IMG/VR virus record: IMGVR_UViG_3300028577_000006
DNA length: 64,000 nucleotides
Strand: one strand, 5' to 3'
Origin: a virus
Lineage: Duplodnaviria > Heunggongvirae > Uroviricota > Caudoviricetes
The translations under genes were made by a program, and so were the position numbers. The notes beneath the pieces are model-generated. The model saw only the letters and a list, made by a program, of their open reading frames with translations. It did no database searches and was not told the origin of the DNA. This document shows, in pieces, positions 40,300 through 63,880 of the stretch. Each line of letters begins with the position of its first letter. Positions within the stretch are counted from its first letter, which is position 1.

Positions 40300-40845
40300 C
40301 TAGAGACCACCCAGGCCGTCGCCAGAGTCGCCCATTCCATCACGCCGCCGCTGAGGGAGAACGCCATTCGACGCGTTCGCCGGATCTACTTCGTAGCTAC
40401 CAAGCGACTGCGAGTCGCCCTCGTACGGTCCCGACTCGTAGCAACCCATGCCGAGCGTGTCGCGCATCGGTCCGATCGGACGAGCGCCTGGCACCGCACG
40501 ATTCGCGTTCGCACGATCGGCACGCTGCGCCTCTGCCATCTGCTGCTTCCAGATCGCGCACGACTCGTTCGCATGCCTGAACAGGCCGGGCGAGTGACAC
40601 GGGGACTCGGTCCATTGCTGCGCAACCTGCTGCTCATGCGTGCCGCTGAAGCCAGGCTCCGTCACGTAGTCGATGTGGTGCGTGTAGTTGAGCGGCATGC
40701 CGATCATGAAGTCGGGCCCCCATCCATACGGCGCGTACACCGCACCAGCAGGACCAGAGCGCGCAGCGTACGGCGCGATCCCGCCCGCGAAGTACGTCGT
40801 AGGAGCGACGCCCGGTATCCCCAGGCCTGAACGACGGTAGCTCAT
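40300..40845 (-). CDS. hypothetical protein (MSYR family N-terminus)
   Basis: internal ATG 40845 (MSYRRSGLGIPG) overlapping upstream stop (ATGA). Confidence 0.45.
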   Translation of the reverse strand: MSYRRSGLGIPGVAPTTYFAGGIAPYAARSGPAGAVYAPYGWGPDFMIGMPLNYTHHIDYVTEPGFSGTHEQQVAQQWTESPCHSPGLFRHANESCAIWKQQMAEAQRADRANANRAVPGARPIGPMRDTLGMGCYESGPYEGDSQSLGSYEVDPANASNGVLPQRRRDGMGDSGDGLGGL

Positions 40846-41135
40846 CGGACCCCCTGCGCTCGAAGCTGATCGCCGATCTCGTCCATCACCATGGCCATCT
40901 CCTTGGAGATCGCCGCCCATTCGCGTGCCAGCACCGGGCTGAACTCCGTACCGGTGAGCGTGCACGCCAGATCGCGCGCCATCATGTACGCGGCCAGGGC
41001 CGGCAACACACGCGAGTTCTCCAGCTCGTCTTCGGCCTTCGTCAGAAGATGGTCGATGTCGCGCAGCGTTGCTGTCGCGGAGAAGTTTCGGCGGGAACGA
41101 CGCTTCGGTCGCCGCGATGTGCGGCGGCGTTTCAT
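40842..41135 (-). CDS. hypothetical protein with RTSRR N-terminal tail
   Basis: MKRRRTSRRPKRRSRRNF. Confidence 0.45.
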   Translation of the reverse strand: MKRRRTSRRPKRRSRRNFSATATLRDIDHLLTKAEDELENSRVLPALAAYMMARDLACTLTGTEFSPVLAREWAAISKEMAMVMDEIGDQLRAQGVR

Positions 41136-41887
41136 TCCTCGCTCTCGTCCATCTCTTGGTCGACCAGCTCATCTTCTTGCGTGGTAGTCCAGTCGTCCGC
41201 GTTGCTGACGCCGTCGAAGGTGCCCTTCCTGATCGTTTCGCCGAGATTCTCGATCTCGACGCGCACGTTCCGGCCGTGACCTCCGCTTTCGGCAAACACT
41301 GCCGCCTGGTCGTACAAGACTGCATCGCACGGTTTCTCGGTGCCGAGCGGCTTCGTCCAGACCCCGGGCTTCGCCTTGAGCCTTCCCCAGCCGAGTCGTT
41401 CGAGTTCCGGAGCCTCCTCGACCGCCAGCGTCTCGGCTCGCATGCGCTGCTTGGCCTCACCATGGATCTCGGTGCCGCCCCACTCCCACGACGGAATGCA
41501 GACGATACCGGGCTCCTTCACGCAGCGGATCGTCGTGTGACCGATGATGGTCATGTCGACCGTGGCAGCGTCGTACACCTTGTTCTGCTTGGCCTCCGAC
41601 AGCTCGTCCCAGCCGCCAGCCGGCCACTCGATGCCTTCGTCCTTGGCGGCGGCCTTCATGTCGGCGTCGCTGATGACCGAGAAGATTCCACAGGTCTTCG
41701 GGTCGTCGAGATGGTCAACCGCGTACTCGAACGCGTCTTCGAAGTGATCGGCCCACACGAGCAGCTTCGTGTCCCCGTACGCGCCGAAGTGCATGAGGAA
41801 CAAGCCGCCACGATCGGCATCGCTCGTGTTCACCACGTCTAGGCCCTTGAACTCGTCGCCTGGATTTTTGCGCGATCGCTTCGTCAT
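41132..41887 (-). CDS. hypothetical protein with acidic C-terminus
   Basis: 251-aa ORF, ATGA-coupled. Confidence 0.5.
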   Translation of the reverse strand: MTKRSRKNPGDEFKGLDVVNTSDADRGGLFLMHFGAYGDTKLLVWADHFEDAFEYAVDHLDDPKTCGIFSVISDADMKAAAKDEGIEWPAGGWDELSEAKQNKVYDAATVDMTIIGHTTIRCVKEPGIVCIPSWEWGGTEIHGEAKQRMRAETLAVEEAPELERLGWGRLKAKPGVWTKPLGTEKPCDAVLYDQAAVFAESGGHGRNVRVEIENLGETIRKGTFDGVSNADDWTTTQEDELVDQEMDESEE

Positions 41888-41896
41888 AACGACCCC

Positions 41897-42676
41897 TCAA
41901 TAGTTGAACACGACCTGATGGAGCGTGTTCGTGCCGCCGCCTGCGCGGTTCAACGACTGACCAGTGCCGCCGTTTGGCAACACGCCAGGTGCCGCCGGCT
42001 CGACCGCCGTAGCGCTCCACAGGTCTGTCATGCCCGGCGCCGCGACCACCTGCTGCTGCTGCTTCACATTCGCGAACCAGTCCTGGATGTCGCTCTGGGT
42101 GAGATGCCCGGTGCCGCCCACCAAGCCGTTGAAGATGCCCTGGATCGTCAACGGCCTCGTCGCAGCCACGTAGGTCGGACCGCTGAGCGATGAGTACGGA
42201 TTATTCTGAAGTGGCAGTCCATCGATCCACACCTGGAACACGGAGCCAGGGGCGCTCGGATTTGGGTACACGGACACGAGGCCCACGGTCACCGTGACGC
42301 CCGGAAGATACGGCTGGAGCACGCCAACAGAGCGAGCGCTCGGATTCGCCGGGTCGGTGAGCAAGAGCCCATCGATTGCATTCGTCGGGTTGACGTTGAC
42401 GATCGTAAACTCGTTGTCGATGTCAATCGACTGGTCTTCGTACTCGATGAAGATGCCGCTCGTGTTCACGACCTGAGCGTCGACTGACGAAGGCCCGCTG
42501 CCGAGGGCAACGAAGCCGAACCAGAACGGTGGCGGACCGTGCGTGAACGACGGAGATGCCGCAGTGGCGTTGTACGTCGCGTTCAAGAACCACATGCCGA
42601 CAGGAGGCTGCTGGGCGAATCCGCCGGAACGGCGTTTCCATCCAGATTTCCAGAGCATTCCTTTCGATGCGGTCAT
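41897..42676 (-). CDS. structural-like protein (beta-rich, Asn/Thr/Gly-rich)
   Basis: composition typical of tail/fiber-like proteins. Confidence 0.5.
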   Translation of the reverse strand: MTASKGMLWKSGWKRRSGGFAQQPPVGMWFLNATYNATAASPSFTHGPPPFWFGFVALGSGPSSVDAQVVNTSGIFIEYEDQSIDIDNEFTIVNVNPTNAIDGLLLTDPANPSARSVGVLQPYLPGVTVTVGLVSVYPNPSAPGSVFQVWIDGLPLQNNPYSSLSGPTYVAATRPLTIQGIFNGLVGGTGHLTQSDIQDWFANVKQQQQVVAAPGMTDLWSATAVEPAAPGVLPNGGTGQSLNRAGGGTNTLHQVVFNY

Positions 42677-42693
42677 GTTGTTTGGTCTATGCT

Positions 42694-42801: not shown

Positions 42802-42803
42802 AA

Positions 42804-43490
42804 TCACGTACCACCCTTGCTCAAACGGTTGAGGATCCTGTCCATCTGCAACTCGGGAATCAAGAACCCGTTGATCTCGACCGACAGCAGCTTGGTCTCG
42901 AACGGGGGGGCGCGCAGCGCCGTAACCGTCGCCTCGATCGTCTGGCCTGGCCGCACGTACGATGCGAACGACTGTAGGCCAAGCTGCGACGGGCCTGCGA
43001 ACGGGTAGAAGCTGCCCTGTCCTGGCGTCGGAGGATAGACCGTCTGCGCGCCCTTGCCAGCGTTGACGACAACAGGGTCGCCGTTCGACGTGAGATTCGT
43101 AGAGAAGTCCGTTGTGCCGCGGCCACCGACCTTGAGCGAGAAGCCGAATACGGTGGTCAGGCGCGAAAGAGGAACTTCCTCGACGTCTTTTGGATCGATG
43201 CCCGTGTTCTGGTAGACGCGAAACGTCGAGTTCTGAAGAACGATGACGGCCTCTTGTGGAGCCTGGATCTTGAGCACGGGGATCGCGCGCGGATACGGCG
43301 GCGCACCCTGGATCGCCACCGGGATCGGATAGTTGGCGAAGAACGCGCGCTGGAAGAACGTCAGCTGCTGCGACGGCAGGAACTGGAAGTACGCGTCCTG
43401 CACCTGGACGGGCGTCACCGCGATCGCGATTTCTTCCTGCGGAAGCGGCGAGCTTCCCTGACTGTTCAAGAGCGCTGGACGGCCACGCAT
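42804..43490 (-). CDS. structural-like protein
   Basis: 228-aa ORF, Pro/Gln/Phe-rich. Confidence 0.5.
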   Translation of the reverse strand: MRGRPALLNSQGSSPLPQEEIAIAVTPVQVQDAYFQFLPSQQLTFFQRAFFANYPIPVAIQGAPPYPRAIPVLKIQAPQEAVIVLQNSTFRVYQNTGIDPKDVEEVPLSRLTTVFGFSLKVGGRGTTDFSTNLTSNGDPVVVNAGKGAQTVYPPTPGQGSFYPFAGPSQLGLQSFASYVRPGQTIEATVTALRAPPFETKLLSVEINGFLIPELQMDRILNRLSKGGT

Positions 43491-43852
43491 CAGCCACCTC
43501 CGCTCAGAACAGGCACGCCACGCGTGTACGCATCGACCGCCGCCAAGACCTCACCCGTCACAAACGGATGCAGAAGATCGCCATTGGCACCGATCGGAAT
43601 GTGGCCTCGCGATGCCGCCCAAAGCGTGCCTGCGACCGTACCGGTGGCTGCCAACGTCTTCGCGAGGGCTGGATGCGTCGGCATGGCCAACGTCAGTGTG
43701 TTGCCGATGATGCGCGTGGCATAGAAGCCGAGCGCGCTGTTGACGCAGAACAGCGCGTACCACTGGGCATCGCGGAAGGCTCCGCGCATGGTCACTGGCT
43801 TGCGTCCGTTGCGGCGTGCCTTCGGACGTCGCGATGTGCGACGACGCGTCAT
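43490..43852 (-). CDS. hypothetical protein with RTSRR N-terminal tail
   Basis: internal ATG 43852: MTRRRTSRRPKARRNGRK. Confidence 0.45.
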   Translation of the reverse strand: MTRRRTSRRPKARRNGRKPVTMRGAFRDAQWYALFCVNSALGFYATRIIGNTLTLAMPTHPALAKTLAATGTVAGTLWAASRGHIPIGANGDLLHPFVTGEVLAAVDAYTRGVPVLSGGG

Positions 43853-45007: not shown

Positions 45008-45790
45008 TCAGAGAACGTCGCGCGAGTGGATGCCGTCGAGGACATACTTGATGTCCTTCTCGATGTCGTCCTCACCAGCGACCGAGAGGCCGGTGCCCGT
45101 CGCGGTGCCGGTCGTGAGACCGGAGCCGCTGATGATCGCGTTCGGGCTGTTGTCCGGCACGAGGCCGTTCAGCTGCTCGATTGCCGACGCGCCGGTCGTC
45201 TGACCGATCGGCGAGGCGATCGCGATCACCTGGAAGCCCTGACGGGGCGGGATGAGGATCGGACGCGCCAGGCGCATGAGCGCGCTCGACGTCGGCACGC
45301 CGTTGTTCGCGCGCGGGAGGCGCGAGTCGGCGAAGAAGCCGTCGAGACCACCGGCCATCGGGGTGTACGCGGTGAACGTCGTGAGCTGCGGCTTGTCACC
45401 AGCGACCATCTGCCAGAAGAACTGGTTCTGGGTCTGGTGGTAGAGCTTGTGCACGCGCATGACGCGGTCCGGATACACGCCGTTCACGTTGCCGATCGGC
45501 TGGGGCGCGCCCTGCGTCACGACGACCGGCGCTTCCGGGTTGAACCGGAAGTACGTCCAGACGCGCACCGCGAGGGTGATGTACGTCTGATCCGACGGGA
45601 AGAAGCCGCCCGTGGTCAGGTTCGACACCGAGATGTCGGCGCCCTGACGGACGAACAGCTGCGCGCGGTTCGGGACTGCTCCGAACACGCCCTGGTTGGT
45701 GGATCGAAGATCCACCGAACCATCGACGCGGATGAGGCTGTCGTAGAACGGCTGATGAACACGCTCGCGGGTACCAACGATCTTCGGCAT
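45008..45790 (-). CDS. putative major structural protein, paralog A (260 aa)
   Basis: SD GGAGAC-N6-ATG; 196-nt structured lower-GC upstream region; first ~100 and last ~110 aa nearly identical to paralog B. Confidence 0.6.
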   Translation of the reverse strand: MPKIVGTRERVHQPFYDSLIRVDGSVDLRSTNQGVFGAVPNRAQLFVRQGADISVSNLTTGGFFPSDQTYITLAVRVWTYFRFNPEAPVVVTQGAPQPIGNVNGVYPDRVMRVHKLYHQTQNQFFWQMVAGDKPQLTTFTAYTPMAGGLDGFFADSRLPRANNGVPTSSALMRLARPILIPPRQGFQVIAIASPIGQTTGASAIEQLNGLVPDNSPNAIISGSGLTTGTATGTGLSVAGEDDIEKDIKYVLDGIHSRDVL

Positions 45791-47483: not shown

Positions 47484-48112
47484 CAGCCACCACCCATCTG
47501 GCCTGAGAACAGCTGACGCGCGAACACGCCACCCGCGTAGCCGTGATCGGCCGCCGCGAACGGCGTCGTCACCTGCTTGATCTGAGCTTCGTTCTTCGCG
47601 CGGAACGCCAGGTCCCTCGGGATGATCGTCGAGACGCCTGGCGGCTGGGGAAGGTATCCCAATCCGAGCATACCCTGATACGGAGCACCGTAGTGAGCGA
47701 CATCGACCAGCGGGTCAGAAAGCCCAGACACGTTGCTGGGAGTGAGCGTGGGCGACGAGGTCATCGTCGCAGACGACGGAGCCGTCTGAACGACATTCGG
47801 CAAGAACGGCGTGATCGCCGCGATGCCCATGCCGGTCGCGAGTGCCTGGCTGATCTCGTCGGACATGCCGACGCCACCGCCCATGGTCACGGCAACCGCA
47901 CCACCAGCCGCGCCGGTGATGAGCAGAAGCATCTTCGGGTCCAGAGTCGGAAGTAGACGCTGGGTGACGTTGGAGGTCAGCCACGAGGTAAGCAGAATGC
48001 CGCCTGCGCCAACGAGTGCAGGCACGACGAGACGCTCGATGACGCCGAATCCGGCACCTTCTGCGTTCCGACGAAGCCTGTTGCGGCGTGAGCGACGGTT
48101 CTGCTTCCTCAT
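47483..48112 (-). CDS. hypothetical structural-like protein with RSRRNR N-terminal tail
   Basis: MRKQNRRSRRNRLRRN; C-terminal GGVFARQLFSGQMGGG shared with next gene. Confidence 0.5.
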   Translation of the reverse strand: MRKQNRRSRRNRLRRNAEGAGFGVIERLVVPALVGAGGILLTSWLTSNVTQRLLPTLDPKMLLLITGAAGGAVAVTMGGGVGMSDEISQALATGMGIAAITPFLPNVVQTAPSSATMTSSPTLTPSNVSGLSDPLVDVAHYGAPYQGMLGLGYLPQPPGVSTIIPRDLAFRAKNEAQIKQVTTPFAAADHGYAGGVFARQLFSGQMGGG

Positions 48113-49151: not shown

Positions 49152-49183
49152 TTTTCCTGGCGGACTTGTTCGCGAACCGCCGA

Positions 49184-50614: not shown

Positions 50615-50898
50615 CGAACTCTTCCTCCGCCTTGGGTTCTGACCAGGGTGTTGCTGCGATCGGGAACGTGCCCTGACCGCGGACGTGAACAGGCCCGCTC
50701 GTCGAGAAGGACGACCCGGATTGAGAACCGCCAGAGTCGTCACGCCACCGGGATTCGGTGCCATGCCAGGCGTACGGTCGTATGACCGCGCTGCCTTCTC
50801 TGTCGATCTCCGATATACAAGGGTCATTTCAGACGCACGTCTCCCGTGCGACCGACCCCGTAGCGGAGAGAGAGCAAGCGCCCTCGGTCTTCGAGAGA

Positions 50899-56607: not shown

Positions 56608-58240
56608 TCAGCGCTTGGAGCGCGAACGACGCTTGCCCTTGAGACCGCGCGACGCCTTGCGACGCCAGCCGTTCTTGCGTGACCGGCGATTCGCCGTCGA
56701 CTTTGCTGCGGACTTCGAGGCCGCCGTCTTCGGCTTCCTCGTCACCATGTAGATGATGCCGCCGACGGTGACGACGCCAACCGCCGCCATCACCGGCCAG
56801 TACCAGCTGGTGGTCGTGTCGGTGTACGCCGTGGCGGGCACGGCCGCGGTCGTTGCTGCCGGGGTCGTCGCTGCCGACTGGCCCTGCGTGCCCGCGATGA
56901 TGCTTCCGGCAACACTGCCCGCGGTCGTGAGCGCGGTACCCCAGTCCTGCGCCGTGTGATCAGGCTGCGATACCGTCTTGGTCACCTGACCAAGCCCGAT
57001 GCGAGCGTCGCGCCTGCCAGCGAAGTAGCTTCCTGGATTCGACGCGATCAGAGCCCGCAGCGCCGCAGGGCTCATTCCCGGATCTGCGCCCATGCCGACC
57101 ATCCGGCCAGCGAAGTAGCTGCTCGGGTGCTTCGCGATGATCGAGCGGAGACGTGAGGCGTCGATGCTTGGTGCTGCGCCGAGGCCTGCCATCGTTCCCC
57201 TGCCGGCGAAGTAGCTGCCCGGGTGCTTCGCGATGTGCGCACGCAGCGCTTCAGCGCTCATGCCGCTCAGGCCTGCCATCGTTCCCCTGCCGGCGAAGTA
57301 GCTGCCCGGGTGCTTCGCGATGTGAGCGCGGAGCGCTTCAGCGCTCATGCCAGAACCTGTCGGTGCCCTGTAACTCATAGCGTTCTCCCTGCCGAGACCC
57401 GTGTACCCACCGAGACCAACAACGGCGGCCTTCGGAATCGTGACGCTCTGCGCCGCCGCGCGGATTGCCGCCGCTTGACGCTGCGCCGCCAAGGCCACGT
57501 TGTCCGTTGCTGCGCCGGTTGCATCAACGAAACTGCCAGCGTTCCGAAGCGCCGTGCCCCATGGCGTGATCCCCAACGACGTGAGACCGTAGTTCCGCAC
57601 CGTGTCACGCTGAAGCGGAATCGGGACGCCCTCTGGACGGGGCGCCGTGAGACCGTAGTTCCGCACCGTGTCACGCTGAAGCGGGATCGGAAGGCCCTCG
57701 GGACGGGGCGCCATGAGGCCGACGAGCGTGTCGCGCACAATGCGCTCCTGCGTCCTGCCGGCGGCTCGGCCCCTGCGCTCCGGCTCGTCATCCGGTCGGC
57801 ACTGATAGACACTGACGGTCGTGTAGGCGCCCGCGCCTGCGCCGCCGGTCACGGTGACGTTGCCACGCGTGTACGCGTCCGTGGAAGTGCTCGTTGGTGA
57901 GCGAACTTCGGTGCTGGTCGACGTCGATGTCGGGCTTCGGACCTCGGTGCTGGTCGACGTCGATGTCGGGCTTCGGACCTCGGTGCGCGTCGGGCTGCTG
58001 TCGTTCGAGTTGCCGCGCGTCGGGCTGCTGTCGTTCGAGTTGCCGCGCGTTGGGACGAGCGGCAGCACGGCTGGCACTGCACGCACGGTCGGCACCGCCG
58101 GAACTGCTGGCACGGCCGGTACCGCCGGAACCTGGCCGAGCCCCAGCATTCCGAAGAACCGACGGACGGCATCGCCGCGCTGCGGTTGACGCACGATGAC
58201 AGTTCGCGCTGGACGCTGGATCGGTGCCCTGTAGCTCATG
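56608..58240 (-). CDS. repeat-rich protein (544 aa; MSYRAP N-terminus, four ~27-aa MSAEALRAHIAKHPGSYFAGRG repeats, C-terminal TM + basic tail)
   Basis: internal ATG 58240 overlapping upstream stop (ATGA); upstream part of annotated 780-aa ORF is antisense-like Arg/Ala-rich. Confidence 0.5.
56990..57360. repeat. tandem DNA repeats (~66-81 nt units, about four copies) encoding the HIAKHPGSYFAGR repeats
   Basis: two perfect adjacent copies around 57180-57310 plus degenerate flanking copies. Confidence 0.6.
57900..58050. repeat. short tandem repeats (36-nt x2 and 33-nt x2) encoding TEVRSPTSTSTS and TRGNSNDSSP repeats
   Basis: direct repeats seen in sequence. Confidence 0.5.
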
Positions 58241-58922
58241 ACCTTCTCCCTGCCCGGCGGCGCCGGCCATTCTTCTTGCTTCGATTGCTGGTCACCGCTC
58301 GGCGACGATAGAAGTAAAACGCGACGCCACCCAGAAGCAGCGCGCCTGCGGCAACGCCGCTCGCGACCAGTACCGTCTGCATCGTCGCGGCGGCGGCGGC
58401 CGTCTGCTCTGACGGCTGCGCGCCGGTACTCGACTGCACTGCGACGCCTGCCGGCGGCGCGGGCGGCGGCGGAACCGAGCCGGTCGGGTACACGTACAGA
58501 TCTGTGCGACCCATCGGCATGTTCACGCGGAACCGTCGCATGATGATCTGCGACTGCGGACTGATGCGCAGCGCACCCTGAAGCAGCGCATCGCGCAGCT
58601 GCGTCGCGTACGAGATCGCAGGCGCATTCGCATTCGGACGCCACTTCGCGTAGACGTAGCCGCCGGTAACCCAGCGCACGTCGTCGACCGAGTTGCCGAG
58701 CGCCGTGAGCGTGTTGCGCACGTTGTCGAGCACGCTCAACGCGGCCTGTTCCGCGGTGATGTTGACCACCGAAAGCGTCGCATCGAGCCACGGCACCGTC
58801 GCCGCGAGCGGAGGCATGTACACGTACGAGCCAACGACGAATGCGTTCACGTCGCTGTTGTTGACAGACGGCACCGGGCTCGGCGTCGTGCCGGCCAGCG
58901 CGAGTGGAGCGCGGTAGCTCAT
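58236..58922 (-). CDS. hypothetical protein (MSYRAP N-terminus; C-terminal TM + RRRR tail)
   Basis: internal ATG 58922, ATGA overlap with upstream stop. Confidence 0.45.
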   Translation of the reverse strand: MSYRAPLALAGTTPSPVPSVNNSDVNAFVVGSYVYMPPLAATVPWLDATLSVVNITAEQAALSVLDNVRNTLTALGNSVDDVRWVTGGYVYAKWRPNANAPAISYATQLRDALLQGALRISPQSQIIMRRFRVNMPMGRTDLYVYPTGSVPPPPAPPAGVAVQSSTGAQPSEQTAAAAATMQTVLVASGVAAGALLLGGVAFYFYRRRAVTSNRSKKNGRRRRAGRRS

Positions 58923-59587
58923 CGTGTCCTCTGACGGCGGCGACGCGCACGGCGACGGCGTGAGCGTGGGTTGTTGAGCAACGCTGCCGGACTGAAGGCG
59001 CGCGCGGTGCGTCCTACCGACGAGATCATCCAGGCTCCGAGTCCGAGCACAACGATGCCGCCAGCTCCGACCACGCCCCATACCCACATCGGCTGGCCGA
59101 AAAGCAGCCGATCTGGATGCGTCTGATCGACGGGGGCGATTCCAGAAGCGCGCGGCTGCTGTCCGGTGATCGCCGTGTAGCGCTGTTCGAAGGCGTTGTA
59201 TCGACCGGCATCTTCGCGAGCGGTCGTGACCGGCGTGGCGCTCGACCCCGACGGCCACGCGTCGTGGTACGTCTGCCAGTGCGCGAGGAACGACGTCTTG
59301 AACGGGGCGTATTCCTGCCGCAGCTGTGCGCCAGCGCCGGAGTTCGGCACATTCGCGTTGATGTCCTGATCCAGCTGCGAGACCGCGTTCAAGATCGAGT
59401 TGTAGAACGTCGAGATGTCACCACTCGACCAGATCGTGTAGTCGGGAATCGTGAGCGCACCCATGCCCGACGTTGGCGTCTGATCGACTCCAACGGTGTC
59501 CCAACGGCGTGGACCCGACACAGGCAAGATCCGAGTCCTGCTGGTCAAGAACCCGCTGCCGTTGATCTGCGGCGCGCGGTAGCTCAT
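58919..59587 (-). CDS. hypothetical protein (MSYRAP N-terminus; C-terminal TM + RRRARRRR tail)
   Basis: ORF; ATGA overlap with upstream gene. Confidence 0.45.
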   Translation of the reverse strand: MSYRAPQINGSGFLTSRTRILPVSGPRRWDTVGVDQTPTSGMGALTIPDYTIWSSGDISTFYNSILNAVSQLDQDINANVPNSGAGAQLRQEYAPFKTSFLAHWQTYHDAWPSGSSATPVTTAREDAGRYNAFEQRYTAITGQQPRASGIAPVDQTHPDRLLFGQPMWVWGVVGAGGIVVLGLGAWMISSVGRTARAFSPAALLNNPRSRRRRARRRRQRTR

Positions 59588-60042
59588 GCCCGTCTCGCGA
59601 TCTTAGACCGTCGGTGGCGCCGAGTCGACTTCTTGCCGTTCATTCGAATCGTCTTGGCAGCGAGTCGCGACTTCACAGGCTGAGACGGAGCCATGTCGCC
59701 TGGAAGGAAGTCTGACCAGACCATCATGCCGTCGATGCCGTCGTGAACCGCAGCCTCTTGCCAGTCACGGCTCCACACGGTCGGAGCCGGCTTCCAACGC
59801 TTGTGATCGTAAGCGATGGCCACGAGCACTCCTGGAACGTGCTCGTAGCCGAAGTACGCGACGGCTTTCGCCTCTTCGCGTGTGTGATCTGCGGTCGTGC
59901 CGCGCAGCATCTGGCGGCCGGCCTTGTCGTAGAACGCGTAGCCCCAATCATCGCGCCCGAACATCGACTCGAAAAAGCCGCCGTTGCGACGCACCTTGCG
60001 GTGGCCGCGACTGGTCCTCTTCCTGCTCGTTCGCTTCGTCAT
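59584..60042 (-). CDS. hypothetical protein with RTSRK tails
   Basis: internal ATG 60042 (MTKRTSRKRTSRG). Confidence 0.4.
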   Translation of the reverse strand: MTKRTSRKRTSRGHRKVRRNGGFFESMFGRDDWGYAFYDKAGRQMLRGTTADHTREEAKAVAYFGYEHVPGVLVAIAYDHKRWKPAPTVWSRDWQEAAVHDGIDGMMVWSDFLPGDMAPSQPVKSRLAAKTIRMNGKKSTRRHRRSKIARRA

Positions 60043-60044
60043 GA

Positions 60045-60680
60045 TCAGCGCTTTCGCTTTCCGGCGAGCGTCCGTCCCCACGGACGCTTCTTCACGCCCT
60101 TCTTCCAGACGGTCTCTTCGAGCATAGACATGAAGTTCTTGCCGACGTACCCGCTGCCGGCATAACGCGCGATCTCCAGGTGATCGACCGTCATCTCCGG
60201 ATCATCCAGGTACGACTTCGCGACCTTGCGTGCCTCTGCGAGTGTCATGTGCTCGCTGACCTTCATGTCGCGCGGCGCATGCATCACGAACTCGCCGCCG
60301 TTGGTCGGGACGCCGTAGAGATTCCAAGCGTCTTCCGGATCGAGCCGCACGTAGTACGTCTGTTCGTACGAGGCGCGATGGTTCGCGCGAGAGCGACGCG
60401 GGTTCGATGCGTACGGCGTCCCCCCGTCATCGCCCTTCTCCGAGAGGAAGCGGCGCCATGCGGCGTCAGCCTTCTCGCCACTCTGCACGCGACGAAGGCT
60501 CGGCCAGTAGAGCACGCGGTCGCCCTTGCGGACCTTGCGTCCCTCGTCGTCGTGGCTGTCGTACTTCGCGGTGATCCACATCGGATCGCCGCCGTACGTC
60601 TGCCGACGAGGGCGCGGGTTCGCGCGACTCGTACGCCTGCGCGTGACGAGCGCCGACTTCTTGCTGGTCCGCTTGCTCAT
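60045..60680 (-). CDS. hypothetical protein with RTSRA N-terminal tail
   Basis: internal ATG 60680 (MSKRTSKKSALVTRRRTSRANP). Confidence 0.4.
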   Translation of the reverse strand: MSKRTSKKSALVTRRRTSRANPRPRRQTYGGDPMWITAKYDSHDDEGRKVRKGDRVLYWPSLRRVQSGEKADAAWRRFLSEKGDDGGTPYASNPRRSRANHRASYEQTYYVRLDPEDAWNLYGVPTNGGEFVMHAPRDMKVSEHMTLAEARKVAKSYLDDPEMTVDHLEIARYAGSGYVGKNFMSMLEETVWKKGVKKRPWGRTLAGKRKR

Positions 60681-60682: not shown

Positions 60683-61600
60683 TCAGCGCTTGTTGCGACG
60701 CTTGCCGCGATTTCTGGCCATGCGACGCGTCATGCGAGTCGACGGGCGTGCCATGGTGCGCGATGCGCGAGAGGGCGACGTGCTCACGGTGGTGGTGCGC
60801 GGAGCAGGCGTACGACGCTTCCAGATCATGTAGCCAACACCGCCGGCAATCACCACGCCTCCCGCGATGAGCGCAGGGATCAGCCACGCTGGCTGCGTCG
60901 AAGATCCTTCGTCCACGAGCACGGCCTGGCCATTCGGGTCGACACCGACCACAGCGGACGTGTCCGTAGATGCAGCGCCAGGCTTGCTACCGGTCGATGG
61001 CGACGTGCTCGTTGACCGAGCAAGCGTCGTAGACGTAGTGGTCGAGCTGGACGGGCGCGACGGGTCCGACACCGCCGGAAGCGCGGCGAGCTGCTGAGCC
61101 AGTGTCTTCGAGACAGCAACCCAGCCTGACACGCGTGCAGTCGGAGGAACGTTTGCCGCAGCCGGCAAGCCCGGACTGATGGCGTTGAGGGCCGCGAGCG
61201 TGATCGGACCAGACTGGCCGTCCACCAAGATCAACGCGCCACGACTCGCGTTCTGTGCGCGCCAGGCGTTGATCGCGCGCTGTACCCAGTGCGCATCGAT
61301 CTGCCAGTACCTGGCGTCGGAATCGGTGCGAAACGAAGCCGCGGGCATACCCAGCGGTGCTCCGCCGGTTTGACCAAGGCCAGCCATCTGGAACGTCACG
61401 GGCACGTGGCGTGCGACGCGAGCGAGACACGCGCCCTCGTCCGCCATCTGCGTGCAAGCGCGCGCCATGCCATCCCAGTACTTCTTCATCTGTGCGGGCG
61501 TCGACAGCTGGCCAAGACCAGCCGTCGCGGACGCGCGCGCGCCATCGCCGTAGCTGGGGCCCACCGTCCTGAAAGGAGTTCCTCCTGCTCGGTAGCTCAT
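60683..61600 (-). CDS. hypothetical protein (MSYRAG N-terminus; Ser/Thr-rich linker; C-terminal TM + basic tail)
   Basis: ORF; ATGA overlap. Confidence 0.45.
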   Translation of the reverse strand: MSYRAGGTPFRTVGPSYGDGARASATAGLGQLSTPAQMKKYWDGMARACTQMADEGACLARVARHVPVTFQMAGLGQTGGAPLGMPAASFRTDSDARYWQIDAHWVQRAINAWRAQNASRGALILVDGQSGPITLAALNAISPGLPAAANVPPTARVSGWVAVSKTLAQQLAALPAVSDPSRPSSSTTTSTTLARSTSTSPSTGSKPGAASTDTSAVVGVDPNGQAVLVDEGSSTQPAWLIPALIAGGVVIAGGVGYMIWKRRTPAPRTTTVSTSPSRASRTMARPSTRMTRRMARNRGKRRNKR

Positions 61601-61869
61601 CGCGAACTCCTCTTCCTGCGTGATGTGCGCTTGTTTCGCCGGCTCGTGCGCTTGCGGCCACGGTTCGCTGCGATCGCCCGCTGCTCGGCGTACAGACCAT
61701 TCGTGATGATCTTGTACGCTTCGCTCGCGGGCCGACCCGCCCGGATCAGGTTCAGCATCGTGTCGGCCACGTCGTCGCCGAAGTGCGCGAAGGCAAGCGG
61801 CGGAACGCCGTATTTGGTGGCGTACTCACTGCGCCAACGCGTGATCTTGGATGTAGCGTCCCCACTCAT
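61597..61869 (-). CDS. hypothetical protein with C-terminal RTSRR tail
   Basis: GRKRTSRRNKRTSRRKRSSR. Confidence 0.45.
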   Translation of the reverse strand: MSGDATSKITRWRSEYATKYGVPPLAFAHFGDDVADTMLNLIRAGRPASEAYKIITNGLYAEQRAIAANRGRKRTSRRNKRTSRRKRSSR

Positions 61870-62297
61870 CGGCTCTTCCTCCTGCTGCGACGGCGGCTGC
61901 GGTTCGGAACCGGTGCTTCCACGCCGAGGCGCGTGGCGATGACTGCCTTCTCCGCGGTGAACCCATGGTCGCGCACCAGCAGATAGAACTGGTGCGCGAC
62001 GTCGTCGCCGAAGTTGGCGACGGGTTCAGGATCCTTGGAGAAGATGGCGACCGTCTCCTCGTACGCCTTCTTCAGCGGCACACCCTCATCGAGCAGCGTG
62101 TGCATGCGAGCGATCGCGTCTTCGCCAGCGTGCTTCAGGTCAGACGCCTTCACGCCGTACTTCTCGGCGTAGCTACGCTTCCACATGGCGATCAGATTGC
62201 CCGCGCGCACGCCGGGCGTGCCGCCGTTGCGGCGCGAGGTCCGCTTGCGACTATTGCGCTTGGACTTCCTGCTGGTTCGACGCTTCGCCATCTTCAT
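61866..62297 (-). CDS. hypothetical protein with N- and C-terminal RTSRR tails; paralog of 61597..61869
   Basis: internal ATG 62297 (MKMAKRRTSRKSKRNSRKRTSRRN); shares AEKYGV / helical core with previous gene. Confidence 0.45.
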   Translation of the reverse strand: MKMAKRRTSRKSKRNSRKRTSRRNGGTPGVRAGNLIAMWKRSYAEKYGVKASDLKHAGEDAIARMHTLLDEGVPLKKAYEETVAIFSKDPEPVANFGDDVAHQFYLLVRDHGFTAEKAVIATRLGVEAPVPNRSRRRSRRKSR

Positions 62298-62301
62298 CTC
62301 C

Positions 62302-63063
62302 TCAGATCGACTGGCCCTCGTCACGGAGGGCATCGACGTACTCTTCCCATTCCTTGCCGCGCTTGCCGTTGGGGCGCGGATAGAAACCAACGACGCCGCT
62401 GCCGTGATCGGTAGCCGTGAGACCTTCCTTCGAAGCGAACTTCTCCAGATCGGCCATCGGCAGCGTGACGCCTGTCGAGCACTTCACGGTGACGAGCGGC
62501 GAGCACGGCTTGCAGTACTTCTTCGCCTCGTCGGCGTCCGTGTAGATCTTGATGTCCTTCATCGGCAGGCCACGGCGACTGACGAACTTCGTCAGCTGCT
62601 CGCCGAAGGCGCTGCGACTCGGACTCCACCCGCTCGACTCGGTCGAAGCCGGCAGCGCACGCGATGCACGGTCATCATCGCCGTCGTCATCTTCGCCGCC
62701 GTCGTTCTTCTTCGACTTGCTGCCGTTCTTGAAGAGTAGGTAGCCGCCGCCGAGCACGCCGATGCCGATGAGACCCCAGCCCCACACGGGCACGCCAGCG
62801 TACCGGTTGGTCAGCATGTTGCCCGCCGTCTCTGGCGTTGCGACTGCCGCCGGTGTCGCACCCGGGATCACGCCCTGCGCGAGCGACAGCGGGTAGAACT
62901 GCTGCGGCTGAGCCATCGCAGGCTCCGCGTCGGAGTAGTAGTCCTGCGGCATCCCATCGTGTCCTTCGACCTGCATGGGGTGTCCTTCGGCACGAAGCTG
63001 CTGCTCCTGTGCCGCCTGCCGCTCGAAGTACTGCTGTTCCATCTCGTCGAACTCGTCGTCCAT
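62302..63063 (-). CDS. acidic membrane-associated hypothetical protein
   Basis: 253-aa ORF with TM GWGLIGIGVLGGGYLLF and DDDGDDD stretch. Confidence 0.5.
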   Translation of the reverse strand: MDDEFDEMEQQYFERQAAQEQQLRAEGHPMQVEGHDGMPQDYYSDAEPAMAQPQQFYPLSLAQGVIPGATPAAVATPETAGNMLTNRYAGVPVWGWGLIGIGVLGGGYLLFKNGSKSKKNDGGEDDDGDDDRASRALPASTESSGWSPSRSAFGEQLTKFVSRRGLPMKDIKIYTDADEAKKYCKPCSPLVTVKCSTGVTLPMADLEKFASKEGLTATDHGSGVVGFYPRPNGKRGKEWEEYVDALRDEGQSI

Positions 63064-63105
63064 GTGCCCAGCTTTCTGTGAGGTGCCCAGAGAAACAGAA
63101 GATGA

Positions 63106-63576
63106 TCAGCGACGGCTACGGCGCGAGCGCCGCTTGCCATTGCGGCGTGCGCGCCGACGATTCGCGGTTGCCTTCGCTGGCGCCCGCTTGCTCGACATGA
63201 CGACGAACCCGACCGTGAGCAGAACGGCGCCACCGATGAGCGCGATCGGCACCCACGGGATGTCGCTGCTCGTCGAAGCGCCGTAGTCCACCGGCATCGT
63301 TGCCGTCGCGTACGGTGAATACGCCGACTGGCTCGGATCGACCTGCGGCGATGTGCCGCTCTTGTCGATCGGAGACGCGGTCGCGGTCTTGCCGCCGGAC
63401 GTTGCCAACTGCGAGATCAACGTGTCCGAAGCTGGCGAGACATCGGGCGTCGTCTGGCCGAGCGGCTCACCGTCGAACAAGTTCTTGCGGAAGATGCCGC
63501 GACTGCCCTCGGGGCCGCCGCTCAGGGCCTCTCCGTTGAACAGGTCATTGACGAACAATCCGTTGCTGTGACTCAT
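63106..63576 (-). CDS. hypothetical membrane protein with C-terminal RRRARR tail
   Basis: TM IALIGGAVLLTVGFVVM then ANRRRARRNGKRRSRRSRR. Confidence 0.45.
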   Translation of the reverse strand: MSHSNGLFVNDLFNGEALSGGPEGSRGIFRKNLFDGEPLGQTTPDVSPASDTLISQLATSGGKTATASPIDKSGTSPQVDPSQSAYSPYATATMPVDYGASTSSDIPWVPIALIGGAVLLTVGFVVMSSKRAPAKATANRRRARRNGKRRSRRSRR

Positions 63577-63586
63577 GACTTTTCCT

Positions 63587-63880
63587 TCACCGAGCCCTAC
63601 GGCTCGTCCTCTTGTTGCGACGACTCGTGCGCTTCGCTCGGCGTGAGCCGCGCTTGTTCTTCCTGACCTTCATCCACGAGCGATACTCACCAGGCGTCAC
63701 GTTGATGCGCGTGTACGTCCTGGCGATCGTCGGGAATCCGCCCTGTGCCAGTGCAGCCTTGCCGAGATACCCTTCATCGACGAACGTCGAAGAGTGGCCC
63801 GTGTCGTCAAAGATGATCCAGCCGCGGCGAGGGTTGCCGCTCGTGTCGTTCGTCGTCGAGATGTAGACGGCGAGCATCAA
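63587..63880 (-). CDS. hypothetical protein with C-terminal RTSRR tail
   Basis: RKNKRGSRRAKRTSRRNKRTSRRAR. Confidence 0.45.
   Translation of the reverse strand: MMLAVYISTTNDTSGNPRRGWIIFDDTGHSSTFVDEGYLGKAALAQGGFPTIARTYTRINVTPGEYRSWMKVRKNKRGSRRAKRTSRRNKRTSRRAR

What the first reader, a model, noticed from the sequence alone, without database searches (positions are those of the whole stretch)
40842..63880. More than 20 consecutive structural-operon genes encode proteins with RTSRR-type arginine-rich terminal tails, plus a 476-aa protamine-like Arg-repeat protein
At least 22 gene products in this block begin or end with near-identical basic peptides (MKRTSRRPKR..., ...KRTSRRNKRTSRRAR, NPNYxIxPNRK). 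One gene (49184-50614) is almost entirely RRNSRRRTSRRA repeats. The same tail occurs on the GHKL protein at 33132 and on HicB at 36762. Such a uniform, portable basic tag on otherwise unrelated membrane, repeat-rich and globular proteins suggests a shared targeting or packaging signal (for example co-packaging with DNA as internal or ejected proteins), or a common proteolytic maturation site. I am not aware of a described equivalent.
Basis: seen in the sequence. Interest (0 to 1): 0.8.

Follow-up and report, generated by a model that had tools for sequence, protein, structure and literature searches.

The report
Arginine-rich tails on many virus proteins
An uncultured large virus puts short protamine-like, arginine-rich tails on about 30 of its probable particle proteins and also encodes a 476-residue arginine-repeat protein, most likely to hold and neutralise its DNA, a design known from adenovirus and hepatitis B virus but not from viruses of bacteria.

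Summary
In 40842-63880, 18-20 of 29 minus-strand genes carry an N- or C-terminal tail with at least 50% Arg/Lys. They are interspersed with tail-less genes, including two capsid-like genes.

The block continues outside the interval. With 39.2-40.3 kb and 9.6 kb beyond the window end, 28 of 45 proteins have tails.

- **Not chance:** the motif [KR]R[TSN]SR[RK] occurs 24 times on the coding strand outside the repeat gene, against 0.77 expected over all six frames.
- **Protein-level selection:** codons for KRTSRR vary synonymously, including AGY versus TCN for serine.
- **Conserved:** tails recur in relatives whose capsid-like protein is 36-75% identical.

The conserved 260-residue protein models as a single jelly roll. 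Its best structural match is the capsid protein of Sulfolobus polyhedral virus 1. About 15 block proteins have a membrane segment. No tailed-phage hallmark was seen in about 84 kb.

Best reading (confidence 0.45): these are polycationic DNA-binding arms on proteins of a membrane-containing, tail-less large virus. The arginine-repeat protein would act as a membrane-linked protamine analogue. All function is inferred.

The parts
63587..63877 (-). 96-residue soluble protein with C-terminal tail ...KNKRGSRRAKRTSRRNKRTSRRAR
   Evidence: same 96-residue call in ENA and JGI assemblies
63106..63576 (-). 156-residue protein: membrane segment 109-127, then C-terminal tail ...TANRRRARRNGKRRSRRSRR
61866..62297 (-). 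143-residue protein with N-terminal tail (MKMAKRRTSRKSKRNSRKRTSRRN) and C-terminal tail (PNRSRRRSRRKSR)
61597..61869 (-). 90-residue paralogue of the previous gene with C-terminal tail ...ANRGRKRTSRRNKRTSRRKRSSR
60683..61600 (-). 305-residue protein: MSYR N-terminus, membrane segment 241-259, C-terminal tail ...ARNRGKRRNKR
60045..60680 (-). 211-residue protein with N-terminal basic tail MSKRTSKKSALVTRRRTSRANPRPRR and basic C-terminus ...GKRKR
59584..60042 (-). 152-residue protein with N-terminal tail (MTKRTSRKRTSRGHRKVRRN) and C-terminal tail (MNGKKSTRRHRRSKIARRA)
58919..59587 (-). 222-residue protein: MSYRAP N-terminus, membrane segment, C-terminal tail ...NNPRSRRRRARRRRQRTR
58236..58922 (-).
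56608..58239 (-). 543-residue repeat-rich protein: MSYRAP N-terminus, membrane segment 482-500, C-terminal tail ...TANRRSRKNGWRRKASRGLKGKRRSRSKR
   Evidence: the tail is duplicated in the next gene
55370..56596 (-). 408-residue very basic protein (net +97): 44-residue N-terminal tail, internal Arg-rich stretches and two NQTFYI elements
54503..55366 (-). 287-residue protein with N-terminal tail (MRRRSRKNFASRNR), C-terminal tail (ANGRKRTSRRKNRTSRRAR) and an internal ARNRGRSRRNPPPLY
   Evidence: the L019 orthologue carries the tail at its N-terminus
54219..54506 (-). 95-residue protein with N-terminal tail MKRTSRKSKRNSRRPKRTSRRKRRSRRN
51542..53815 (-). 757-residue two-domain protein joined by an internal basic linker (RPKRTSRSKKK ... 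RNPKRNSRQKRTSGHPGAKRTSRSARRN). In relatives the C-terminal domain is a separate gene, with or without an N-terminal tail.
   Evidence: (phrog_2319 on residues 43-465 of the longer 774-residue ORF 51542-53866)
49184..50614 (-). 476-residue Arg-repeat, protamine-like protein. About 42% Arg+Lys and net charge about +225 were computed on the longer 547-residue ORF (49184-50827). Units are of the type RRNSRRRTSRRA, with one NPNYFIIPNRK element.
48141..49133 (-). 330-residue protein: N-terminal tail MGRKHKRRHSKKSRHSKKNPNYVILKPNRK, hydrophobic region, GEYVDQP repeats and C-terminus GGLFARNLFAGMF. In relatives it is fused to the Arg-repeat protein as one protein of 704-883 residues.
47483..48112 (-). 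209-residue shorter paralogue: N-terminal tail MRKQNRRSRRNRLRRN followed by two membrane segments. Orthologues in L016, L019 and L020 all keep an N-terminal tail.
45987..47483 (-). 498-residue capsid-like paralogue with an ice-binding-like (PF11999) insertion and no tail; absent from some strains
45008..45790 (-). 260-residue, strongly conserved single-jelly-roll protein, the candidate major capsid protein; no tail
43490..43852 (-). 120-residue protein with N-terminal tail MTRRRTSRRPKARRNGRK followed by a hydrophobic region. The start is ambiguous: called as 120 residues in one assembly and 99 in another.
41132..41887 (-). 251-residue acidic protein with only a short basic start, MTKRSRKNP (marginal case)
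40842..41135 (-). 97-residue protein with N-terminal tail MKRRRTSRRPKRRSRRN
40022..40282 (-). 86-residue protein outside the reported interval: N-terminal tail MAKKRHSKKNVRRRVRRNRGHRRMRRN, hydrophobic segment, C-terminus SGLGTLVVV
39465..39950 (-). 161-residue protein starting MSYRRRLDRRRSPR, with a membrane segment at 26-44
36762..37016 (+). HicB-like (UPF0150-like) protein with N-terminal MRRTSRRR after a GGGAGG Shine-Dalgarno site; HicA-like gene downstream
33132..36032 (-). 966-residue protein with N-terminal tail MKRTSRRPKRTSRMPKRSSRNP and only a weak GHKL-type ATPase signature

Best explanation
The window comes from an uncultured large virus, probably of a bacterium, with a genome of at least about 190 kb. 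Its particle is probably tail-less, built from a single-jelly-roll capsid protein over a lipid layer. About 30 proteins of its particle-gene block carry disordered, protamine-like arms of 10-45 residues, at least 50% Arg/Lys, with a recurring K/R-R-x-S-R-R/K core.

I propose that these arms bind the phosphate backbone of the packaged double-stranded DNA. They would neutralise its charge, and they would tie membrane proteins and soluble internal proteins to the genome.

The 476-residue Arg-repeat protein is fused in relatives to a hydrophobic C-terminal domain. It would be the main condensing protein, a membrane-linked analogue of protamine or adenovirus protein VII.

The invariant serine before the Arg-Arg pair, and the asparagine at the tail-body junction, suggest that binding is regulated by phosphorylation or that the arms are processed.

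Shown: the tails exist, are translated, are under peptide-level selection, are conserved across the virus family and cluster in the capsid-gene block.

Inferred: the proteins are in the virion, the virion has a membrane, and the tails contact DNA.
For: Tails are real and selected as peptides.
- The motif is about 30-fold over shuffle expectation and strand- and frame-specific.
- Codons for KRTSRR vary synonymously, with serine encoded by both AGY and TCN.
- A 25-codon tail duplicated across the 56608/56596 gene boundary differs at 11 synonymous and only 4 non-synonymous codons.

Composition and pattern are protamine-like.
- In R-x-x-R-[RK] contexts, TS outnumbers ST 42 to 3 and NS outnumbers SN 15 to 0, so a serine sits directly before the Arg-Arg pair.
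- One copy of each of 33 block proteins has net charge +554, against +37 for 17 other proteins of the window.

The context looks like a particle module.
- The 260-residue protein is at least 70% identical across the best 120 of its 267 database homologues.
- It models as a jelly roll (pLDDT 74.7, pTM 0.78).
- About 15 of 45 block proteins have a membrane segment, and at least 9 of these have the basic tail directly after it.

The feature is conserved.
- Relatives at 68-75% capsid-protein identity keep tails on orthologues.
- A relative at 36% identity keeps the large basic protein next to the capsid gene and three membrane proteins ending ...PN|RRRRRR.
- In relatives the Arg-rich region is fused to a hydrophobic domain, which places the polycation at a membrane.

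Precedents for polycationic genome-binding arms and core proteins: PMC7998265, PMC5899202, PMC3039676, PMC3683802.
Against: - There is no experimental or proteomic evidence that any of these proteins is in a virion.
- No packaging ATPase was found in the roughly 84 kb examined. The rest of the genome was not seen, so a tailed virion is not excluded.
- Topology is a problem. By the positive-inside rule the tails next to membrane segments sit on the cytoplasmic face. In a PRD1-type vesicle pinched off from the cell membrane, that face points toward the capsid, not toward the DNA.
- Pure charge neutralisation does not explain why the specific K-R-T-S-R-R sequence and the junction Asn are kept.
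- Tails on a HicB-like protein and on a large, only weakly GHKL-like protein outside the block fit a delivery tag at least as well as a structural role.
Confidence: 0.45

Rival explanations
1. The tails are a specific sorting tag, a 'ticket into the particle' or into an infection compartment. A dedicated viral receptor, scaffold or chaperone would read K/R-R-T-S-R-R and load any tagged protein, including effectors such as the HicB-like protein and the large weakly GHKL-like protein, for delivery into the next host. DNA binding would be incidental.
For: - The sequence, not only the composition, is conserved: TS against ST is 42 to 3.
- The same hexapeptide is written with different codons in unrelated proteins.
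- Tags sit on proteins with no structural role.
- Orthologues gain and lose tags, and tags move by local duplication.
- T4 uses a conserved capsid targeting sequence to load diverse internal proteins (PMC3012670).
Against: - Tags work at either terminus and internally, vary from 10 to 45 residues, and in relatives degenerate to plain poly-Arg. That fits electrostatics better than a lock-and-key signal.
- No candidate receptor was identified.
- A 476-residue protein made of the same units is hard to explain as a tag.
Confidence: 0.2
2. The tails are propeptides. A maturation step cuts at the conserved junction Asn, after RRN at N-terminal tails and after xAN or xPN at C-terminal tails. This would release free poly-Arg peptides that condense DNA, as adenovirus mu is released from its precursor, or would simply remove an assembly-only segment.
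For: - 6 of 11 N-terminal tails are followed directly by Asn, against a 3.7% Asn background.
- By my reading of the output, 17 of 20 C-terminal tails start right after Asn (TAN|RR, xPN|RR).
- The PN|RR junction is kept in a relative with only 36% capsid-protein identity.
- Adenovirus mu is a 19-residue basic peptide cut from a precursor, and several core precursors are cleaved in the virion (PMC7998265).
- A weak transglutaminase-like (papain-fold) match (E = 0.002, below the curated cut-off) lies near the homologous block of a relative.
Against: - No protease was identified in this genome.
- Asn also recurs inside the basic runs (RRNSRR, RRNKR), so it may be part of the repeat unit rather than a cut site.
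- Nothing here tests cleavage.
Confidence: 0.15
3. The tails are membrane-topology determinants or lipid-binding anchors. They would fix the orientation of the many small membrane proteins and attach soluble proteins to the anionic lipid surface or to the inner face of the capsid, without contact to DNA.
For: - At least 9 tails lie directly after a membrane segment and several directly before one, as the positive-inside rule predicts.
- Bacterial membranes are anionic (general knowledge).
- One N-terminal tail ends in RRNFFK, which resembles a twin-arginine motif.
Against: - Tails carrying 8 to 12 Arg/Lys residues exceed what topology needs.
- More than half of the tailed proteins have no membrane segment.
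- A protein with net charge about +225 has no plausible lipid-only role.
- The twin-arginine pattern with a following hydrophobic region is missing from nearly all tails, and half the tails are C-terminal.
Confidence: 0.1
4. The tails are an artefact: wrong frames or starts, or Arg-rich off-frame translation typical of 64% GC DNA, or a DNA-level regulatory repeat at gene boundaries that happens to be translated.
For: Off-frame translations of this window are indeed Arg/Ser-rich, and one start (43490-43852) is ambiguous.
Against: - 22 of 24 motif copies are in the frames of genes called independently by two pipelines.
- There are 2 copies on the opposite strand, and shuffles give 0.77.
- C-terminal tails run in frame to the stop codon.
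- N-terminal tails follow an ATG, about half of them with a Shine-Dalgarno match upstream.
- Codons vary synonymously, so there is no conserved DNA word.
- Tails are conserved in distant relatives.
Confidence: 0.01
5. The tails are nuclear or nucleolar localisation signals, and the virus infects a eukaryote. K-R-x-x-R-R-x-K-R resembles classical basic import signals.
For: Resemblance to monopartite basic import signals (general knowledge), and the large genome with many tRNA genes.
Against: - Shine-Dalgarno sites and overlapping start/stop junctions.
- HicA/HicB, a Tad2-like anti-Thoeris domain, a bacterial RF-1 fragment and HNH endonucleases.
- Related contigs were binned only with bacterial genomes.
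Confidence: 0.03

Closest known systems
Arginine-rich arms of capsid proteins, in particular the C-terminal domain of the hepatitis B virus core protein
   Same: Terminal, disordered, Arg-rich segments with interspersed serines (hepatitis B SPRRR against RTSRR here). They face the nucleic acid, balance its charge, and in hepatitis B are regulated by serine phosphorylation (PMC3683802, PMC3039676).
   Different: Those arms sit on the single major capsid protein of small RNA, reverse-transcribing or single-stranded DNA viruses. Here the capsid-like protein has no arm. The arms are spread over about 30 minor, membrane and soluble proteins of a large double-stranded DNA virus, at either terminus. 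There is no sequence homology.
Adenovirus core proteins VII, V and mu
   Same: Basic proteins that condense double-stranded DNA inside a jelly-roll capsid. Protein VII mimics protamine, and mu is a 19-residue basic peptide released from a precursor (PMC7998265).
   Different: Adenovirus uses three dedicated core proteins rather than a tag on many proteins, has no membrane and infects animals. No Pfam or PDB sequence match was found here.
Baculovirus P6.9 and other protamine-like viral DNA-condensing proteins
   Same: Small Arg/Ser/Thr-rich proteins that condense the viral genome. Their binding is controlled by phosphorylation and dephosphorylation (PMC5899202). The 476-residue repeat protein here has the same composition.
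   Different: P6.9 is one short free protein. Here the repeat protein is much longer and in relatives is fused to a hydrophobic domain.
Sulfolobus polyhedral virus 1 (Portogloboviridae) and other viruses with vertical single-jelly-roll capsid proteins (P23-77, SH1, HHIV-2, HCIV-1)
   Same: These give the best structural matches to the modelled 260-residue protein. [quoted passage not shown] The block here also holds many small membrane proteins.
   Different: Those genomes are much smaller; portoglobovirus genomes are about 20 kb (PMC8459092). Related contigs here reach 298 kb, with 37 tRNA genes in this window. There is no sequence similarity. No packaging ATPase lies next to the capsid gene. 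Most relatives have a single capsid-like gene.
Capsid targeting sequence of bacteriophage T4 internal proteins
   Same: A short portable terminal peptide shared by otherwise unrelated proteins that directs them into the head. It is used to load anti-defence proteins (PMC3012670).
   Different: From my own knowledge (not checked in the papers read), the T4 tag is N-terminal only, is not polycationic, binds the scaffolding core of an HK97-type prohead and is removed by the prohead protease. None of those components was seen here.

Membership tests
Polycationic (arginine-rich, protamine-like) nucleic-acid-binding arms of virion proteins (a functional class, not a homology family) | Terminal low-complexity segment with a high Arg/Lys fraction on an otherwise ordinary protein | tested here: met
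   28 of 45 block proteins have a terminal segment with at least 50% Arg/Lys over 8-44 residues. Protein bodies are near neutral while the terminal 30 residues carry +8 to +18.
Polycationic (arginine-rich, protamine-like) nucleic-acid-binding arms of virion proteins (a functional class, not a homology family) | The carrier proteins are components of the virion | tested here: inconclusive
   The genes cluster around a conserved jelly-roll capsid-like gene and include many membrane proteins. There is no proteomic evidence, and two carriers lie outside the block.
Polycationic (arginine-rich, protamine-like) nucleic-acid-binding arms of virion proteins (a functional class, not a homology family) | The arm contacts and neutralises the packaged nucleic acid | not testable with these tools
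   Needs binding assays or particle structures.
Polycationic (arginine-rich, protamine-like) nucleic-acid-binding arms of virion proteins (a functional class, not a homology family) | Interspersed Ser/Thr acceptor sites, as in protamines, hepatitis B core protein and P6.9 | tested here: met
   The sequence pattern R-x-S-R-[RK] is strongly ordered: TS 42 against ST 3, NS 15 against SN 0. Phosphorylation itself was not testable, and no kinase was found among the window proteins scanned against Pfam.
Adenovirus core proteins (VII, V, mu) | Sequence homology to the adenovirus families | tested here: not met
   No Pfam hit among the block proteins scanned. The Arg-repeat protein itself was not searched because it is low-complexity.
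T4-type capsid targeting sequence | N-terminal tag on internal proteins of an HK97-fold prohead, removed by the prohead protease | tested here: not met
   Half of the tags are C-terminal. No HK97 capsid, portal or prohead protease match was found among the proteins scanned or in the precomputed Pfam hits for about 84 kb.
Twin-arginine (Tat) signal peptides | N-terminal S/T-R-R-x-F-L-K motif followed by a hydrophobic region and a cleavage site | tested here: not met
   Only 48141-49133 has RRNFFK with a weakly hydrophobic stretch after it. Most tails lack a following hydrophobic region, and about half are C-terminal.
Viruses with vertical single-jelly-roll capsid proteins and an internal membrane (Sphaerolipoviridae / Portogloboviridae type) | Major capsid protein with a single-jelly-roll fold resembling those of this group | tested here: met
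Viruses with vertical single-jelly-roll capsid proteins and an internal membrane (Sphaerolipoviridae / Portogloboviridae type) | Two different capsid protein genes side by side (sphaerolipovirus type) | tested here: inconclusive
   This strain has 260- and 498-residue paralogues. They are near-identical outside an insertion, some strains lack the large one, and relatives have a single gene.
Viruses with vertical single-jelly-roll capsid proteins and an internal membrane (Sphaerolipoviridae / Portogloboviridae type) | FtsK/HerA-type packaging ATPase close to the capsid genes | tested here: not met
   No Walker A ORF of 150 residues or more near the capsid gene in the window, L021, L025 or six related loci. 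The rest of the genome was not available.
Viruses with vertical single-jelly-roll capsid proteins and an internal membrane (Sphaerolipoviridae / Portogloboviridae type) | Lipid membrane under the capsid | not testable with these tools
   Only indirect evidence: about 15 of 45 block proteins have a predicted membrane segment.
Tailed phages (Caudoviricetes) | HK97-fold capsid protein, portal, large terminase and tail genes | tested here: inconclusive
   None found in the roughly 84 kb examined, and no match in the GenBank phage collection. The genome is at least about 190 kb, and the remainder was not seen.

The most novel reading that the evidence does not exclude
This is a previously undescribed lineage of large (roughly 100-300 kb), tail-less, membrane-containing viruses of bacteria with a single-jelly-roll capsid. 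Their genome would be packaged as chromatin rather than as naked DNA. A membrane-anchored, protamine-like protein and dozens of Arg-tailed proteins would condense it. The same tail would double as a generic ticket that loads any protein carrying it, including a HicB-like antitoxin and a large weakly GHKL-like protein, onto the DNA for delivery into the next host.
Probability: 0.3. Interest if true: 0.85.

Novelty: new variant of a known kind. Interest (0 to 1): 0.72.

Why it matters
To my knowledge, well-studied viruses of bacteria with large double-stranded DNA genomes package essentially naked DNA under pressure. Protein-condensed genomes are known from adenoviruses, baculoviruses and some archaeal viruses.

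A bacterial virus lineage that neutralises a 100-300 kb genome with a protamine-like protein and some 30 Arg-tailed proteins would be a different solution to genome packaging. It would extend single-jelly-roll, membrane-containing viruses to about ten times their known genome size.

It would also offer a simple portable peptide that may suffice to load foreign proteins into a particle. The strict K/R-R-x-S-R-R pattern and the junction Asn give concrete, testable sites for phosphorylation or processing.

Tried and rejected
- **Phage database searches.** Megablast of 40000-64000 and tblastn of the capsid-like protein against 50,697 GenBank phage records gave no match.
- **PHROGs.** Ten block proteins gave only families of unknown function, phrog_2319 and a weak phrog_16160.
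- **PDB sequence searches.** Profiles A1 and A2 gave nothing below E = 0.5.
- **First structure model.** The model from 30 close homologues was poor (pLDDT 52.9) and was not used. A second alignment with distant relatives from the representative search fixed this.
- **BFVD fold search.** Only weak matches.
- **HicB-like homologue search.** Meant to show tail-less cellular relatives, it returned a single close viral homologue that also has the tail. It was uninformative on portability.
- **Walking along the 133-kb ENA contig.** Walking through IMG/VR reached only a 47%-identical relative. There the upstream region holds an AAA_5 ATPase, a DUF2201 metallopeptidase-like/VWA-like protein and a weak transglutaminase-like match, but no packaging hallmark.
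- **Walker A scan.** No candidate packaging ATPase.
- **Literature searches.** Searches for a prior description of such tails or of this virus group found none. The library is incomplete, so this is not proof of absence.
- **Rejected readings.** A DNA-level repeat at gene boundaries, a GC-content artefact, Tat signals, and eukaryotic import signals.

Full report
**1. What is in the sequence**

The window has about 64% GC, and from about 8 kb onward nearly all genes lie on the minus strand.

I translated the minus-strand ORFs between 39.2 and 64 kb. Many proteins either begin with peptides such as MKRTSRRPKR, MKRRRTSRRPKRRSRRN or MAKRTSRKKRHSRKRTSRKN, or end with peptides such as KRTSRRNKRTSRRAR or ANRRRARRNGKRRSRRSRR.

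I defined a tail mechanically as at least 50% Arg/Lys running to the terminus over 8 or more residues.
- By this rule 18 of the 29 genes inside 40842-63880 have a tail.
- Two more are marginal: 41132-41887 has a short basic start, and 51542-53815 has an internal basic linker.
- The tailed genes are not consecutive. Eleven genes lack tails, including both capsid-like genes.
- Tails also occur at 40022-40282 and 39465-39950.
- A 133-kb ENA contig carrying the same genes shows that the block continues for 9.6 kb past the window end, where 10 of 12 further genes have C-terminal tails.
- In total, 28 of 45 proteins in about 35 kb are tailed.
- The tails on the 966-residue protein (33132-36032) and on the HicB-like protein (36762-37016, plus strand) are also present.

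**2. Is it more than chance or a frame error?**

- The motif [KR]R[TSN]SR[RK] occurs 24 times in minus-strand frames of 39212-64000 outside the repeat gene, and twice on the plus strand.
- It occurs 5 times in all six frames of the remaining 39 kb.
- One hundred dinucleotide-preserving shuffles gave 0.77 +/- 0.77 over all six frames.
- Twenty-two of the 24 copies are in the frames of called genes, and 17 of those 22 lie within 40 residues of a terminus.
- N-terminal tails start directly after an ATG, and about half of these ATGs have a GGAG/GAGG-type Shine-Dalgarno match upstream.
- C-terminal tails run in frame to the stop codon.
- JGI and ENA gene calls from independent samples give the same ORF lengths. 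The one ambiguous start is 43490-43852, called as 120 or 99 residues.
- The codons that write KRTSRR differ between copies. Arginine is written as CGC, CGT, CGG, CGA or AGG, and serine as AGC/AGT or TCG/TCA. What is conserved is the peptide, not a DNA word.
- A 25-codon tail occurs both at the C-terminus of 56608-58239 and at the N-terminus of the next gene, 55370-56596. The two copies share 73% DNA identity. Eleven codons differ synonymously and four non-synonymously.

That last result shows purifying selection on the peptide. It also shows one way tails spread: local duplication across a gene boundary.

**3. Anatomy of the tails**

- **Core.** In R-x-x-R-[RK] contexts over the window and seven related loci, TS occurs 42 times against ST 3, and NS 15 against SN 0. 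RS, SS, GS and AS are also common. The constant element is a serine directly before Arg-Arg, preceded by a basic residue two or three positions earlier.
- **Junction.** Six of 11 N-terminal tails are followed directly by Asn (RRN|G, RRN|P, RRN|F), against a 3.7% Asn background. By my reading of the output, 17 of 20 C-terminal tails begin right after Asn (TAN|RR, xPN|RS, HAN|GRK).
- **Embedded hydrophobic element.** A short element N-[PQ]-x-[YF]-[VIF]-[VI]-x-x-N-R lies within Arg-rich stretches of three proteins. Examples are NPNYVILKPNRK, NPNYFIIPNRK and NQTFYIPIPP. It is kept in orthologues as RNPKYVVVNRKRR and ANQKYVVMNRRR.
- **Carriers fall into three classes**:
  - small soluble proteins with one or two tails;
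  - proteins that start MSYR..., have one membrane segment near the C-terminus and then a tail;
  - proteins with an N-terminal tail followed by hydrophobic segments.
- **Charge.** One copy of each of the 33 block proteins in the window carries a net +554. Seventeen other proteins of the window carry +37.

**4. The Arg-repeat protein**

The gene 49184-50614 encodes 476 residues made largely of RRNSRRRTSRRA-type units.
- Computed on the longer 547-residue ORF (49184-50827), it is 42% Arg+Lys with a net charge of about +225.
- The DNA shows imperfect 36- and 66-base tandem repeats.
- The start MAYNLPGMRAAMRSN matches the N-termini of orthologues in L019 and L020.
- In three relatives the orthologue is a single protein of 704-883 residues. 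Its Arg/Ser-rich N-terminal two-thirds are joined to a hydrophobic region, GEYVxQP repeats and a conserved C-terminus GGLFARNLFAGMF.
- In this virus that ancestral gene is split into 49184-50614 and 48141-49133, which are in different frames.
- The split appears in all five independent assemblies listed, so it is not an assembly error.
- The next gene, 47483-48112, is a shorter paralogue with its own N-terminal tail.

**5. What kind of element is this?**

- The window has no DNA or protein match in 50,697 GenBank phage records.
- Outside the block it encodes RtcB, a Ro60/TROVE protein, RlaP with a LAGLIDADG domain, a Band 7 protein, a DnaJ-domain protein, SIR2, Tad2-like domains, several HNH endonucleases and an RF-1 fragment. 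It also carries 37 tRNA genes.
- The 260-residue protein 45008-45790 has 267 homologues in the large protein database, and the best 120 listed are all at least 70% identical.
- Relatives lie on IMG/VR viral contigs of 9-298 kb, six of them 139 kb or longer. In genome collections they occur only on short contigs of metagenome bins labelled Phycisphaeraceae, Deltaproteobacteria and Acidobacteriota.
- The window's own population was assembled as separate contigs of 133 kb and 58 kb that cover different parts of it. The genome is therefore at least about 190 kb.
- A profile search of 1.84 billion representatives found about 90 more distant relatives of 180-260 residues.
- With these in the alignment, AlphaFold2 gave a confident beta-sandwich (pLDDT 74.7, pTM 0.78).
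- Foldseek also lists SH1 and SPV1 first, but with E-values above 0.05.

The 498-residue neighbour, 45987-47483, is the same protein with an ice-binding-like beta-helix inserted. Some strains lack it, and more distant relatives have only one copy.

No terminase, portal, HK97 capsid, tail protein or Walker A packaging ATPase was seen in the roughly 84 kb inspected.

My reading is a large tail-less virus with a single-jelly-roll capsid and a membrane, probably infecting bacteria. The bacterial pointers are Shine-Dalgarno sites, HicAB, Tad2 and RF-1. This remains an inference until the rest of the genome is seen.

**6. Conservation of the tails**

- In relatives with 68-75% capsid-protein identity (L016, L019, L020), orthologues of the gene upstream of the capsid gene always have an N-terminal tail.
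- In the same relatives, several membrane proteins end in tails such as ANRRRRRRS or PNRRTSRRTSRRPR.
- Some orthologues have a tail in one virus and not in another. The C-terminal domain of 51542-53815 is an example.
- A relative with only 36% capsid-protein identity (L034) keeps three features: the synteny, a 647-residue basic protein next to the capsid gene, and three membrane proteins ending ...KKSATPN|RRRRRRRAQ...TAVPN|RARRSRR and ...TAVPN|RRHRRSRR.

The feature is therefore old in this group. It has expanded in the window's lineage, where the KRTSRR flavour dominates.

**7. Mechanism**

Best-supported reading (confidence 0.45): the tails are polycationic arms that bind the packaged DNA, neutralise its charge, and tie membrane proteins and internal proteins to the genome. 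The Arg-repeat protein would be the main condensing agent.

Shown:
- the tails exist and are under peptide-level selection;
- they are conserved across the family;
- they concentrate in the capsid-gene block.

Inferred:
- the proteins are in the virion;
- the virion has a membrane;
- the tails contact DNA.

The closest functional precedents are:
- arginine-rich arms and the hepatitis B core C-terminal domain (PMC3683802, PMC3039676);
- adenovirus VII, V and mu (PMC7998265);
- baculovirus P6.9, whose binding is controlled by dephosphorylation (PMC5899202).

Weak points:
- By the positive-inside rule the tails next to membrane segments are cytoplasmic. This gives the wrong side for DNA contact if the membrane vesicle forms as in PRD1.
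- Plain electrostatics does not explain the strict T/x-S-R-R order or the junction Asn.

Rivals:
- a specific sorting tag like the T4 capsid targeting sequence (PMC3012670), favoured by the tails on the HicB-like and 966-residue proteins (0.2);
- propeptides cut at the junction Asn, which could coexist with the main model (0.15);
- topology or lipid anchors (0.1);
- eukaryotic import signals (0.03);
- artefact (0.01).

**8. Comparison with the known, and novelty**

By function this is a known kind of device, a polycationic nucleic-acid-binding arm. By homology it belongs to none of the known families (see the membership rows).

Three things are new as far as my searches show:
- the scale, about 30 carrier proteins in one virus;
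- the use at either terminus, on membrane and soluble proteins alike;
- the setting, a large, apparently bacterial virus whose best structural affinity is to single-jelly-roll, membrane-containing viruses with genomes an order of magnitude smaller.

I rate it a new variant of a known kind, with interest 0.72.

Noticed in passing
window 11241-25674 (minus strand): An array of 37 tRNA genes, a near-complete decoder set with 4 tRNA-Arg, 3 Ser, 3 Thr and 3 Leu. It is interspersed with HNH endonuclease genes and small ORFs.
   Followed up: partly
window 12049-13803, 27120-28283, 28561-30657: An RNA-repair set: a Ro60/TROVE plus vWA protein, RtcB ligase, and an RlaP nucleotidyltransferase that also carries a LAGLIDADG domain (possibly an intein or homing endonuclease insertion).
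   Followed up: no
window 15093-15521: A 142-residue ORF matches only the end of the PCRF domain and most of the RF-1 domain of a bacterial class-I release factor. It may be a truncated or split release-factor gene.
   Followed up: no
window 39212-61600 and L021 149-9700: A second shared terminal peptide: at least 11 block proteins start with MSYR (MSYRAP..., MSYRRS...), often followed by a GLGQ/GLG motif. Most of them are membrane proteins that also carry a C-terminal basic tail. The same MSY start recurs in relatives L016, L019, L020 and L034.
   Followed up: partly
window 40300-40845, 40022-40282, 39212-39454; L016, L019, L020: A third shared terminal peptide: several small proteins end in a Gly/Leu-rich C-terminus such as DSGDGLGGL, SGLGTLVVV or SLGLGLLTGI. 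Orthologues in relatives keep it.
   Followed up: no
window 45987-47483 compared with L031 and L029: The large capsid-like paralogue with the ice-binding-like insertion is present or absent between closely related strains. L031 goes straight from the 209-residue gene to the 260-residue gene. In L029 the small paralogue appears broken into 55- and 186-residue ORFs.
   Followed up: partly
window 49133-49186: The ancestral single gene for the large basic protein is split here into two ORFs in different frames with a short overlap. The split is reproduced in five assemblies. A programmed frameshift was not tested.
   Followed up: partly
window 57182-58131: The 543-residue membrane protein contains several near-perfect in-frame tandem repeats of 87, 66, 36 and 30 bases (92-100% matches). 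This suggests a rapidly evolving exposed domain.
   Followed up: no
window 2623-4054 (plus strand) and 10498-11388 (minus strand): Three adjacent ORFs with Tad2-like (anti-Thoeris) domains and a SIR2-family protein, pointing to anti-defence or NAD-related functions.
   Followed up: no
window 36762-37203 (plus strand): A HicB-like/HicA-like pair is encoded on the opposite strand inside the minus-strand gene array. The HicB-like protein carries the viral basic tail, and a close homologue has a TSR-expanded version (MRRTSRTSRKR).
   Followed up: partly
L037 1683-4059 and 9031-9633: In a 106-kb relative, the region upstream of the homologous block encodes an AAA_5 (MoxR-like) ATPase with a DUF2201 metallopeptidase-like/VWA-like partner, and a protein with a weak transglutaminase-like match (E = 0.002). 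The latter could be a maturation protease candidate.
   Followed up: no
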